From: Escherichia coli
GTDB taxonomy: Bacteria; Pseudomonadota; Gammaproteobacteria; Enterobacterales; Enterobacteriaceae
Reading direction: 5' to 3' (one strand)
Length of the DNA: 64,000 bases
Assembly: GCF_048403405.1 (NCBI RefSeq)
Contig: NZ_CP183129.1
Shown: one piece after another, positions 40,501-43,500 of the stretch
Layout of the letters: each line of letters opens with the position of its first letter
Numbering within the stretch: position 1 is the first letter of the stretch
Position numbers: made by a program

Positions 40501-43500
40501 CTTGTGTACTGCAATCACAAGATTTTTTTGCTCGCTAACCAACGTAATTCCTTGTTGCTCAGACGTAGTGGATCAAGTGTGACACGGTTGTTACTACTGA
40601 TGCCACGATATTCGATGTAATCTTCGTCTGCGAAACCTATTGTCGACCAAAGACCACAACAGAGAAGAAAAATATAGGGTAAAAACTTCATGTGGTTAGC
40701 CGATTTTGTTACGTTGTGCGAATGTGTAAAGATCCATCAGTGATTTACATTCTAATTTTTCCATCAGGCGACTTTTATAAGTGCTGACAGTTTTGTTGCT
40801 GATGAACATTTTTTCAGCAATGTCATTATTATCCTTGCCATCAAGAATATATCGCATGACACTAATTTCTTGTTTCGATAAGGAGTCGAGTTTTTGCTGG
40901 TCGGACGTTAAACTTCCAACAAACCGGTTGAGAGAGAAGGGGAAATAGCAGTAGCCATTTTTTGCAGCTTCAATAGCCGCAATGATATTGTTCATGCCTT
41001 CTTTTTTACTCACGAATCCATTAGCGCCAGCATCAGCACAATGTTTCCCGTAAAAATGGTCATTTTTAGCGGAGACGATAATAATAATTCCGCTATATTG
41101 GCGCTTCCTCAGCGTTTCTAACACCTGGATACCGTTAACTCCGGGGATATCGACATCAATGATGACGATATCAGGTTTAAGTGTTTCCACACGCTGAACG
41201 GCACTTCCCCCTTCAGTCAACTCCGCTAAGATTTCAATATCGTTTTTGATCAATAAATTACGAATTGCTGCGATAGCAAGAGGATGGTCATCAATAATTA
41301 TTGCGTTCATAGATTATTCCCTTTGCAATGAAGCATCTCCCTTCTCCCTGTAGTAATACAGACATAAGGCATCATCTCATTTTCTCAATAAAAATAAGAA
41401 AATTTGAGCTTCCTTTAAGATAATTCGACAAGTATACCATATAAATAGTCGGCATATATGAAATGTCAACAATAAAATCAGGGATTGTACCGATGATTTA
41501 TAGTTTCACATTAGTACTATAAGTCTTCTCACTAATCCTACATGCGTAAGAATTGTATTGCAAAAGCCACGGTTTAGTCCTCTGTTGTTTTTTTTGCACC
41601 TCATTTAAATTAGGCCTCCAACGTTCCTGGGACAATGTGCAACACATGCACTGTGTTTGATATGAAGAATGAATACTCTTTTCATTCAATTCATAAATTT
41701 CATCTATGCGAAATGAGAGATAATAGTGGAACAGATTAATTCAAATAAAAAACATTCTAACAGAAGAAAATACTTTTCTTTATTGGCGGTAGTTTTATTT
41801 ATTGCGTTTTCAGGTGCCTATGCCTATTGGTCAATGGAATTAGAAGACATGATTAGTACAGATGATGCCTATGTCACGGGGAATGCAGATCCAATTTCTG
41901 CACAAGTTTCAGGCAGCGTCACTGTCGTTAATCATAAAGATACGAACTACGTTCGACAGGGTGACATTTTAGTCTCACTGGATAAGACTGATGCCACTAT
42001 CGCACTCAATAAAGCTAAAAATAATCTGGCCAATATTGTTCGGCAAACGAATAAACTGTACTTACAGGATAAACAATACAGTGCCGAAGTCGCTTCAGCA
42101 CGTATTCAGTATCAACAATCTTTAGAAGATTATAACCGTCGTGTACCTTTAGCGAAGCAGGGGGTTATTTCAAAAGAAACGCTGGAGCATACCAAAGATA
42201 CGTTAATAAGTAGCAAAGCGGCATTGAATGCCGCTATCCAGGCTTATAAAGCGAATAAAGCTTTAGTAATGAACACACCATTAAACCGTCAGCCACAAGT
42301 CGTTGAAGCGGCGGATGCAACCAAAGAAGCCTGGTTAGCGCTTAAACGTACGGATATTAAGAGTCCTGTTACCGGCTATATTGCCCAGAGAAGCGTTCAG
42401 GTCGGCGAAACAGTGAGTCCCGGACAATCGTTAATGGCTGTCGTACCGGCACGTCAAATGTGGGTTAATGCCAACTTTAAAGAAACACAACTCACGGATG
42501 TACGGATTGGTCAATCGGTCAATATTATCAGCGATCTTTATGGTGAAAATGTTGTGTTTCATGGTCGGGTGACAGGGATCAATATGGGAACCGGCAATGC
42601 GTTCTCCTTATTACCTGCACAAAATGCGACAGGGAACTGGATCAAAATCGTTCAGCGTGTACCGGTTGAAGTTTCTCTTGATCCAAAAGAACTCATGGAA
42701 CATCCCTTACGTATTGGTTTATCGATGACAGCAACTATTGATACGAAGAACGAAGACATTGCCGAGATGCCTGAGCTGGATTCAACCGTGACGTCCATGC
42801 CTGCTTATACCAGTAAGGCTTTAGTTATCGATACCAGTCCGATAGAAAAAGAAATTAGCAACATTATTTCGCATAATGGACAACTTTAATGGCAATCACT
42901 AAATCAACTCCGGCACCATTAACCGGTGGGACGTTATGGTGCGTCACTATTGCATTGTCATTAGCGACGTTTATGCAAATGTTGGATTCCACTATTTCTA
43001 ACGTCGCAATACCGACAATATCTGGCTTTCTGGGAGCATCAACAGACGAAGGCACCTGGGTTATCACTTCGTTTGGTGTAGCAAATGCCATTGCGATCCC
43101 TGTTACCGGCAGGTTGGCACAAAGAATAGGCGAATTAAGATTATTTTTACTTTCAGTAACCTTTTTTTCGCTATCTTCATTAATGTGTAGCCTATCGACC
43201 AATCTTGATGTGCTGATATTTTTTAGAGTCGTTCAGGGGTTAATGGCGGGGCCGTTAATTCCACTGTCACAGAGTTTATTATTAAGGAATTATCCGCCAG
43301 AAAAAAGAACATTTGCTCTGGCATTATGGTCTATGACCGTGATTATCGCTCCGATATGTGGGCCGATATTGGGCGGCTATATTTGCGATAACTTTAGCTG
43401 GGGTTGGATATTTTTAATCAATGTCCCTATGGGGATTATCGTTCTGACATTATGCTTAACCTTACTTAAAGGAAGAGAAACTGAGACTTCACCGGTCAAA

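What the first reader, a model, noticed from the sequence alone, without database searches (positions are those of the whole stretch)
41311..41725. EvgA operator sequences are retained although the cognate kinase gene appears defective
EvgA-box-like inverted repeats are present upstream of yfdX (30515-30532) and in the evgA-emrK intergenic region (41537-41553), and evgA is intact, yet evgS appears frameshifted. This predicts a regulon that is wired but not inducible unless EvgA is phosphorylated by another route or evgS is restored by slippage in the A-run.
Basis: inference. Interest (0 to 1): 0.3.

Follow-up and report, generated by a model that had tools for sequence, protein, structure and literature searches.

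The report
Private one-base frameshift in evgS
This is the ordinary E. coli evgAS acid-response locus with its normal EvgA binding sites, and the only oddity is one missing A in an 8-A run of the kinase gene, which is either an assembly error or a brand-new mutation, so the "retained" operators carry no evolutionary meaning.

Summary
evgA (40696-41310, minus strand) is intact. evgS has A7 (40523-40529) where all six near-identical complete genomes have A8, leaving a 58-codon stub and an out-of-frame 1147-codon remainder. EvgA-type inverted repeats are enriched: 5 matches against 0.67 expected.

The interpretation adds little. Over 11.5 kb around evgS, the missing A is the window's only difference from strain TUM14771. 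The lesion therefore has essentially zero age, and operator decay could not yet have occurred.

With identical flanks in about 5,400 complete E. coli genomes, the tract lengths A7:A8:A9 occur 1:1130:1. The run is not a hypervariable switch.

Within 48.5 kb the window carries both indels seen among seven clone-mates. Both are homopolymer frameshifts (evgS, pdeA). Both alleles recur mainly in short or error-laden public assemblies.

I put about 55% on an assembly homopolymer error and about 40% on a real, very recent slippage mutation. [quoted passage not shown] Interest is low: a known system with a trivial or artefactual variant.

The parts
41311..41725 (.). Divergent evgA / emrK intergenic control region (415 bp)
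   Evidence: It lies between the evgA start (41310, minus strand) and the emrK start (41726, plus strand). It is about 98% identical to K-12 and to the unrelated strain E600003.
41535..41552 (.). EvgA box ATCCTACA-TG-CGTAAGAA, shared by the divergent evgA and emrK promoters
   Evidence: It has 2 mismatches to TTCYTACANNTGTARGAA. The half-sites are identical to K-12 and only the spacer differs. It lies 225-242 bp upstream of the evgA ATG and 174-191 bp upstream of the emrK GTG.
41307..41336 (-). evgL leader mini-ORF (MLHCKGNNL*) overlapping the evgA start by 4 nt
   Evidence: K-12 annotates evgL (b4781) at the equivalent position. The sequence is read directly.
40696..41310 (-). evgA, an intact response regulator (204 aa, REC + GerE, D52 present)
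   Evidence: The DNA is identical to relatives annotated WP_000991370.1.
37099..40691 (-). evgS, 3593 nt instead of 3594, with the frame broken at codons 55-58
   Evidence: The downstream ORF carries SBP_bac_3, HisKA, HATPase_c, REC and Hpt domains.
40523..40529 (-). A7 tract (A8 in all six sister genomes and in K-12), the site of the -1 indel
   Evidence: Alignments; census.
40515..40691 (-). 58-codon EvgS N-terminal stub (signal peptide plus about 36 residues, ending KKIL*)
41726..44427 (+). emrK (41726-42889) and emrY (42889-44427), an intact EvgA-activated efflux operon
   Evidence: The window's DNA here is identical to that of TUM1226.
30515..30532 (.). EvgA box TTCCTACA-AT-TGTAAGAC upstream of yfdX (ATG at 30668)
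   Evidence: It has 1 mismatch and is identical in K-12. EvgA-bound inverted repeats upstream of yfdX and of yfdWUVE are reported in PMC3720670.
30553..30570 (.). Second, weaker EvgA-like box TAACTACA-AC-TGTAAGAT upstream of yfdX
   Evidence: It has 3 mismatches and is identical in K-12.
31544..31561 (.). Perfect EvgA box TTCTTACA-GT-TGTAAGAA upstream of frc (yfdW; ATG at 31813)
   Evidence: It has 0 mismatches and is identical in K-12. See PMC3720670.
30668..37043 (+). yfdX, frc, oxc, yfdV and yfdE: EvgA-activated oxalate/acid-tolerance genes, all intact
   Evidence: ORFs. The DNA is identical to annotated sister genomes except for one intergenic SNP at 31434.

Best explanation
The region is the canonical E. 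coli evgAS / emrKY / yfdX-frc-oxc-yfdV-yfdE locus. Its normal EvgA operators are essentially identical to those of K-12.

The apparent kinase defect is a single-base contraction (A8 to A7) in the longest homopolymer of evgS. It is private to this sequence and has effectively zero evolutionary age. The co-occurrence of 'intact operators and regulator' with a 'broken kinase' is therefore not a state maintained by selection.

I judge the contraction most likely to be a homopolymer-length error of the assembly. On that reading the organism has a normal acid-inducible EvgS to EvgA~P to operator circuit.

Shown: the sequence facts, the privacy of the indel, and the rarity of the allele in curated genomes. 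Inferred: that the cause is technical.
For: (1) The missing A is the window's only difference from TUM14771 over 11.5 kb. It is one of only 5 small differences from TUM1226 over 53 kb.

(2) In a 48.5-kb alignment of the window and six clone-mates there are 18 variable sites. The six complete RefSeq genomes contribute 13 SNPs and no indels. The window contributes 3 SNPs and both indels. The chance that both indels fall on the window is 10/153, about 0.065.

(3) Both indels are homopolymer length changes that break conserved genes: evgS A8 to A7, and pdeA G5 to G6 at 9905-9910.

(4) Both alleles are almost absent from curated complete genomes: evgS A7 in 1 of 5379 and pdeA G6 in 0 of 5421. Yet both recur in lower-grade data.
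- The KKIL* stub occurs in 96 contigs from at least 7 sequence backgrounds, all 3.3 kb or shorter, together with A6-type stubs.
- One such contig of this very lineage also has a T6 to T5 change in evgA.
- The pdeA stub occurs in an NCTC assembly that shows other split genes.

(5) Many pseudogenes in public genomes are assembly artefacts (PMC11017572).

(6) The window's exact protein variants are not on record in the public collections searched.
Against: - The same window contains a real, non-artefactual disruptive event that the sisters lack: an IS4321 insertion in yfeD. This strain has therefore diverged by real lesions.
- The two other 8-nt A/T runs in the compared region are unchanged, and only 2 of about 298 runs of 5 nt or longer differ. 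There is no general homopolymer compression.
- G5 to G6 is an insertion, which is not the classic long-read deletion bias.
- The unrelated complete genome E600003 carries the same A7 allele, with no other frameshifted gene in the 50-kb stretch that contains evgS and its upstream flank. Real slippage at this tract therefore does happen.
- No reads are available, so the question is not settled.
Confidence: 0.55

Rival explanations
1. The frameshift is a real, very recent replication-slippage mutation. The isolate would then be an EvgS-null strain.

Translation stops after 58 codons. Any restart product would lack the signal peptide and the start of the first periplasmic VFT domain, so it could not place its sensor domain in the periplasm. 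EvgA would stay unphosphorylated, and the boxes at yfdX, frc and evgA/emrK (and at ydeP and safA-ydeO elsewhere in the genome) would stay unoccupied. Exponential-phase acid induction of AR2 and of EmrKY/MdtEF would be lost.

Reversion would occur only at the ordinary rate for an A7 run.
For: - The A7 allele is in the sequence.
- The same allele is found in the independent complete genome E600003, annotated 'frameshifted', with no other frameshifted gene in the 50-kb stretch that contains evgS and its upstream flank.
- The strain has other private disruptive changes, including an IS4321 insertion and two nonsynonymous SNPs.
- Deletion of evgS abolishes acid induction (PMC5573083).
- Membrane-anchored EvgS lacking the periplasmic domain is inactive (same paper).
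- Natural strains with a non-responsive EvgS but a functional regulon are already known (PMC5706723).
Against: - Two private frameshifting homopolymer indels against 3 private SNPs is an unusual ratio compared with 0 indels and 13 SNPs among the sisters, unless the strain is a mismatch-repair mutator.
- Both alleles recur mainly in short or error-laden assemblies.
- evgS is under purifying selection, with dN/dS about 0.1 (PMC5706723).
Confidence: 0.4
2. The A8 run near the 5' end of evgS is a contingency tract. It would switch the acid-resistance and efflux regulon OFF (A7 or A9) and ON (A8) reversibly within populations. This would be analogous to the C6/C7 tract in the homologous kinase gene bvgS of Bordetella pertussis.
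For: - BvgS is the homologue of EvgS, and it phase-varies by a homopolymer frameshift that truncates the kinase (PMC1891110).
- A7 and A9 alleles each occur once in complete genomes, in unrelated lineages.
- A7-type stubs occur in at least 7 backgrounds.
- The tract is conserved between lineages that are 5% divergent.
Against: - The tract-length census with identical flanks is A7:A8:A9 = 1:1130:1. This is far from the mixed lengths typical of contingency loci.
- AAA-AAA-AAT is simply the preferred codon usage for Lys-Lys-Asn (my own knowledge).
- An 8-nt A run has only a modest slippage rate in repair-proficient E. coli (my own knowledge).
- Most off-length calls come from short, low-grade contigs.
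Confidence: 0.04
3. The frameshift is real but is compensated during expression. Three routes are conceivable:
- RNA-polymerase slippage on the T7 template could add one A.
- A single tRNA-Lys could slip by -1 on AAA-AAA-A. Either event would recreate the wild-type S-K-K-N-L reading.
- Translation could restart at the TTG at 40542, which is preceded by AAGGA.

Some EvgS activity would then persist.
For: - Sequence context: AGC AAA AAA ATC. A -1 re-pairing of tRNA-Lys is perfect, and the next codon becomes AAT, as in the wild type.
- Low-level compensatory frameshifting at homopolymer indels is documented in other systems (PMC5009743).
Against: - There is no stimulatory element.
- There is no canonical X XXY YYZ heptamer in frame.
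- Slippage at 7-nt runs is expected to be about 1% or less (my own knowledge).
- A restart product would keep its transmembrane helix but lack a signal peptide, and it resembles constructs reported as inactive.
- Nothing in the sequence suggests selection for this route.
Confidence: 0.05

Closest known systems
EvgS/EvgA phosphorelay and EvgA regulon of E. coli K-12 (evgAS, emrKY, yfdX-frc-oxc-yfdV-yfdE)
   Same: Gene order, the evgL leader, a 204-aa EvgA, and three yfdX/frc EvgA boxes identical to K-12. The evgA-emrK box has identical half-sites. The repaired EvgS is 97.5% identical to the K-12 protein.
   Different: One A is missing from the A8 run at evgS codons 55-57. One base differs in the spacer of the intergenic box.
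Natural EvgS variants that do not respond to low pH (phylogroup B2 strains; Roggiani, Yadavalli and Goulian 2017, PMC5706723)
   Same: A conserved EvgA and a functional regulon combined with a sensor that does not deliver the acid signal, which is a 'wired but not inducible' state.
   Different: In those strains the cause is lineage-wide amino-acid polymorphism in a full-length EvgS under purifying selection. Here it is a private frameshift, possibly artefactual, in a lineage whose sisters have an intact gene.
bvgS C6/C7 homopolymer phase variation in Bordetella pertussis (PMC1891110)
   Same: A homologous hybrid sensor kinase, a single-base homopolymer length change, a truncated kinase and a silent regulon.
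   Different: There is no evidence of switching here: the census is 1:1130:1. The tract is A/T, lies at the extreme 5' end, and occurs in a repair-proficient commensal or pathogen background.
Spurious pseudogenes from assembly errors (Cooley and Wright 2024, PMC11017572)
   Same: Nearly identical genomes differ in frameshift calls, and the lesions sit in homopolymers.
   Different: This is not proven for the window. No reads or platform information are available.
evgS 'frameshifted' pseudogene of E. coli E600003 (NZ_CM128598.1)
   Same: Exactly the same A7 allele in the same 80-nt context, with evgA and emrKY intact.
   Different: It is an unrelated lineage, 95.4% identical over 11.6 kb, so the event is independent.

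Membership tests
EvgA operator (EvgA box) | An 18-bp inverted repeat matching TTCYTACA-N2-TGTARGAA. The consensus of Masuda and Church 2003 is recalled from my own knowledge; the paper was not readable here. | tested here: met
   Matches at 31544 (0 mismatches), 30515 (1), 41535 (2) and 30553 (3). The scan gave 5 matches against 0.67 expected, and none of 100 shuffles reached 5.
EvgA operator (EvgA box) | Location upstream of operons known to be activated directly by EvgA, and identity with the K-12 sites | tested here: met
   The boxes lie upstream of yfdX, of frc, and between evgA and emrK. They are identical to K-12 except for one spacer base. The literature places EvgA-bound inverted repeats before yfdX and yfdWUVE.
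EvgA operator (EvgA box) | Binding of phospho-EvgA and EvgA-dependent activation | not testable with these tools
   This needs footprinting, EMSA or reporter assays.
EvgS/BvgS-type hybrid sensor kinase | Domain set: signal peptide, two periplasmic VFT (SBP_bac_3) domains, a transmembrane helix, HisKA, HATPase_c, REC and HPt, with H721, D1009 and H1137 | tested here: met
   Pfam domains are found on the 1147-codon ORF. The phosphorelay residues and a transmembrane helix at 538-558 are present in the repaired translation.
EvgS/BvgS-type hybrid sensor kinase | A single uninterrupted reading frame encoding the whole protein | tested here: not met
   The gene is 3593 nt instead of 3594, with a stop after codon 58. 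Whether this is true of the organism is unresolved.
NarL/FixJ-type response regulator EvgA | REC domain with the phospho-acceptor Asp52, plus a GerE/LuxR helix-turn-helix, full length | tested here: met
   REC spans residues 4-114 and GerE spans 142-198. D52 is read from the translation. The DNA is identical to genes annotated WP_000991370.1.
Phase-variable (contingency) homopolymer locus | Tract length varies frequently among isolates of the species | tested here: not met
   With identical flanks, the counts are A7 = 1, A8 = 1130 and A9 = 1.
Phase-variable (contingency) homopolymer locus | Mixed tract lengths within a culture, and reversible ON/OFF phenotypes | not testable with these tools
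   This needs deep amplicon sequencing and fluctuation assays.
Decaying pseudogene (relaxed selection on a pathway) | Multiple lesions, or excess substitutions, in the gene and its partners relative to intact relatives | tested here: not met
   There is a single lesion. There are zero other differences from TUM14771 in 11.5 kb. All neighbouring regulon genes and operators are unchanged.

The most novel reading that the evidence does not exclude
The conserved A8 run at codons 55-57 of evgS could be a low-frequency ON/OFF tract. It would generate EvgS-null subpopulations that save the cost of the acid-resistance and efflux regulon, and that can revert. This would be the E. coli counterpart of bvgS phase variation in Bordetella. 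The window and strain E600003 would then be isolates caught in the OFF state.
Probability: 0.04. Interest if true: 0.55.

Novelty: already known. Interest (0 to 1): 0.12.

Why it matters
If the frameshift is real, this isolate would lack the inducible exponential-phase acid resistance controlled by EvgS. It would also lack EvgA-driven induction of EmrKY and, indirectly, MdtEF. That is a strain-level phenotype of modest interest, and natural EvgS unresponsiveness is already documented.

The more useful lesson is methodological. A lone frameshift in the longest homopolymer of a conserved gene, absent from all clone-mates, should not be read as regulon rewiring before the reads are checked.

Tried and rejected
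- **Source genome.** I tried to identify it by exact look-up of strain-specific products, namely the EvgS C-terminal fragment and the UpaE N70K variant. Neither is on record. The YpdA E541K variant and the pdeA stub were found only in other lineages, 96-99.8% identical, so they did not reveal the source.
- **Promoter scan.** The sigma-70 and terminator scan of 41250-41800 gave fewer promoter-like sites than the shuffles (1 against 2.9). It was not used.
- **Inverted-repeat search.** The generic search of the intergenic region did not report the EvgA box, whose arms are imperfect. It returned four other short pairs of no evident meaning.
- **Rfam.** There are no RNA-family matches in or near the locus, only six tRNAs elsewhere in the window.
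- **Literature on the EvgA consensus.** Masuda and Church 2002 is not held, and the phrase searches found nothing. The consensus therefore rests on my own knowledge, the enrichment test, and an indirect citation.
- **Long-standing pseudogene with relaxed selection.** I rejected this because there is only a single lesion and no other differences from clone-mates.
- **Compensating second indel.** I rejected this because the rest of evgS is one frame, identical to the sisters.

Full report
**What is there**

The window is an E. coli chromosomal segment running cysZ-ligA-gltX-pdeA-ypdABC-lpxP-yfdX-frc-oxc-yfdV-yfdE / evgS-evgA / emrKY-dsdAXC-ipuAB-upaE. It ends at the argW tRNA insertion site.

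The finding's coordinates, 41311-41725, are exactly the 415-bp divergent intergenic region. This lies between evgA (40696-41310, minus strand) and emrK (41726-42889, plus strand).

**Checking the observation**

evgA is a 204-aa ORF with REC and GerE domains and Asp52.

evgS starts at 40691. Its coding strand reads ...GCG AGC AAA AAA ATC TTG TGA, which stops after 58 codons. The remaining 1147 codons (37099-40542) are in another frame. The run at 40523-40529 is A7.

Alignment with the nearest complete genomes shows they all have A8:
- Over 11.5 kb, the missing base is the window's only difference from strain TUM14771. There is one additional SNP against MS 69-1.
- Over 53 kb against TUM1226, the window differs by 3 SNPs and 2 single-base indels.

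Re-inserting one A gives a 1197-aa EvgS that is 97.5% identical to K-12 EvgS. It has the phosphorelay residues H721, D1009 and H1137 and a transmembrane helix at 538-558. There is therefore exactly one lesion.

EvgA boxes were scanned with the consensus TTCYTACA-N2-TGTARGAA. This is my recollection of Masuda and Church 2003, because the paper could not be opened. Allowing up to 3 mismatches gives 5 matches against 0.67 expected, and none of 100 shuffles reached 5:
- 30515-30532, 1 mismatch, upstream of yfdX.
- 30553-30570, 3 mismatches.
- 41535-41552, 2 mismatches.
- 56365-56382, inside upaE and probably chance.

A published description places EvgA-bound inverted repeats before yfdX and before yfdWUVE (PMC3720670). 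The three yfdX/frc boxes are identical to K-12, and the intergenic box differs only in its 2-nt spacer. The 9-codon evgL leader annotated in K-12 is also present, at 41307-41336.

**How old and how common is the lesion?**

A 48.5-kb alignment of the window with six clone-mates has 18 variable sites. The clone-mates are OX030728, GN02461, 4621, MS 69-1, TUM1226 and TUM14771.

The six RefSeq genomes contribute 13 SNPs and no indels. The window contributes 3 private SNPs: one intergenic (31434), ypdA E541K and upaE N70K. It also contributes both indels. The chance of both indels falling on the window is 10/153, about 0.065.

The second indel is G5 to G6 at 9905-9910. It splits pdeA into 8524-9918 and 9893-10774.

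Census in about 5,400 complete RefSeq E. coli genomes, using exact flanks:

| Allele | Genomes or records |
|---|---|
| evgS A7 | 1 (strain E600003) |
| evgS A8 | 1130 |
| evgS A9 | 1 |
| pdeA G6 | 0 of 5421 |

E600003 belongs to an unrelated lineage. PGAP flags its evgS as 'frameshifted', and no other gene is frameshifted in the 50-kb stretch that contains evgS and its upstream flank.

In the much larger, uncurated collection, the A7 signature stub (ending KKIL*) appears in 96 contigs from at least 7 sequence backgrounds. All are 3.3 kb or shorter. A6-type stubs occur alongside them. One such contig belongs to this very lineage and carries an additional T6 to T5 change in evgA.

The pdeA stub appears in an NCTC assembly that shows other split genes, in two other read-set assemblies, and in a metagenome. 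All of these are from other lineages.

The source genome itself could not be found.

**Real or artefact?**

For an artefact:
- Both private indels are homopolymer length changes that break conserved genes.
- The sisters have none.
- Both alleles are essentially absent from curated genomes but recur in low-grade assemblies.
- Spurious pseudogenes of this kind are common (PMC11017572).

For a real mutation:
- The window also carries an undeniable private lesion, an IS4321 (IS110-family) insertion at 6171-7496 that splits yfeD.
- The two other 8-nt A/T runs in the compared region are unchanged, and only 2 of about 298 runs of 5 nt or longer differ.
- E600003 shows that the same slippage does occur independently.

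I put the artefact at about 55%, a real recent mutation at about 40%, and more exotic readings at about 5%.

**Mechanism under each reading**

If it is an artefact, the locus works as in K-12. EvgS senses mild acidity and relays phosphate H721 to D1009 to H1137 to EvgA-D52. EvgA~P then binds the boxes and activates yfdX, frc-oxc-yfdV-yfdE, emrKY and evgAS itself. This is established knowledge (PMC5573083, PMC4494823, PMC5706723).

If it is real, three things follow:
- The 58-residue stub is only the signal peptide plus about 36 residues.
- A restart at the TTG at 40542 (preceded by AAGGA) or at the GTG overlapping the stop would give a protein without a signal peptide. This is inference.
- Membrane-anchored EvgS lacking its periplasmic domain is inactive, and deletion of evgS abolishes acid induction of the AR2 network.

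The regulon would then be silent to acid. The exceptions would be acetyl-phosphate-driven EvgA~P, shown only in vitro, and rare decoding slippage. Such slippage would recreate the wild-type S-K-K-N reading, which is inference from the sequence; the general precedent is in PMC5009743.

The predicted phenotype is reasonable if the lesion is real. The emphasis on operators being 'retained' has no weight, because a lesion with zero accompanying substitutions leaves no time for decay.

A 'wired but not acid-inducible' EvgA regulon is in any case already documented. Natural isolates carry a full-length but unresponsive EvgS, while EvgA is invariant (PMC5706723).

The idea of restoration by slippage has a striking precedent in the homologous bvgS C6/C7 switch (PMC1891110). 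The 1:1130:1 tract census argues that the evgS run is not a contingency locus.

**Verdict**

This is a known system with known operators. It carries a private single-base homopolymer indel that is either technical or a trivial recent loss-of-function mutation. Interest is low. The only reading worth a bench test is the bvgS-like switch, which I rate at about 4%.

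Noticed in passing
window 9905-9910 (pdeA/yfeA; ORFs 8524-9918 and 9893-10774): There is a second private homopolymer frameshift: G6 where all six clone-mates have G5. It splits the MASE1-GGDEF-EAL gene pdeA. The exact 80-mer is absent from 5,421 complete genomes. The 444-aa stub nevertheless recurs in an NCTC assembly, two other read-set assemblies and a metagenome, all from other lineages.
   Followed up: yes
window 6171-7496 (flanked by yfeD fragments 5886-6170 and 7497-7604): A 1326-bp IS4321 (IS110/DEDD-family transposase, 334 aa) is inserted in yfeD. It is absent from all six near-identical genomes. Copies 100% identical to it lie mostly on plasmids in other strains. 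IS4321 is usually described as targeting the terminal repeats of Tn21-family transposons (my own knowledge), so a chromosomal yfeD target is unusual.
   Followed up: partly
window 31544-31561: A perfect EvgA box, TTCTTACAGTTGTAAGAA, lies 252-269 bp upstream of the frc ATG.
   Followed up: yes
window 60631-64000: Similarity to the clone-mates ends at 60630, inside the argW tRNA-Arg gene position. Beyond that lies prophage-like DNA with Ead/Ea22-like ORFs. TUM1226 carries a different island (Ag43, YeeU) at the same junction, and TUM14771 has none. Rfam finds no complete tRNA-Arg in the window.
   Followed up: partly
L008 (Logan contig ERR5353228_1270), equivalent to window 39966-41066: This is a 1.1-kb public contig of the same lineage. 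It carries the same evgS A7 plus a T6 to T5 change at window 41007 that would also frameshift evgA. The two homopolymer deletions within 1.1 kb suggest an error-prone read set.
   Followed up: partly
window 41588-41595: A T8 run lies in the evgA-emrK intergenic region, 36 bp from the EvgA box. It is conserved in K-12 but interrupted (TATCTTCT) in E600003. It is one of only two runs of 8 nt or longer in the window.
   Followed up: no
window 24778 (ypdA E541K), 51896 (upaE N70K), 31434 (yfdX-frc intergenic): These are the only three private substitutions of the window among seven clone-mates in 48.5 kb. Both coding changes are nonsynonymous. The YpdA K541 variant also exists in unrelated lineages.
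   Followed up: partly
window 4638-5846: A 402-aa ORF corresponds to an IS609-type RNA-guided endonuclease (InsQ/TnpB). In the sister genomes it is annotated next to a degenerate tnpA. It is 100% identical to TUM14771 but shows several substitutions against TUM1226.
   Followed up: no
window 48900-59600 (ipuA/ipuB, HTH regulator, upaE at 51687-59600): The tyrosine invertases IpuA and IpuB lie next to the 2637-aa autotransporter gene upaE, which is annotated 'phase-variable' in the sister genomes. This is a real switch system only a few kb from the evgS tract. I did not compare the orientation of its invertible element.
   Followed up: no
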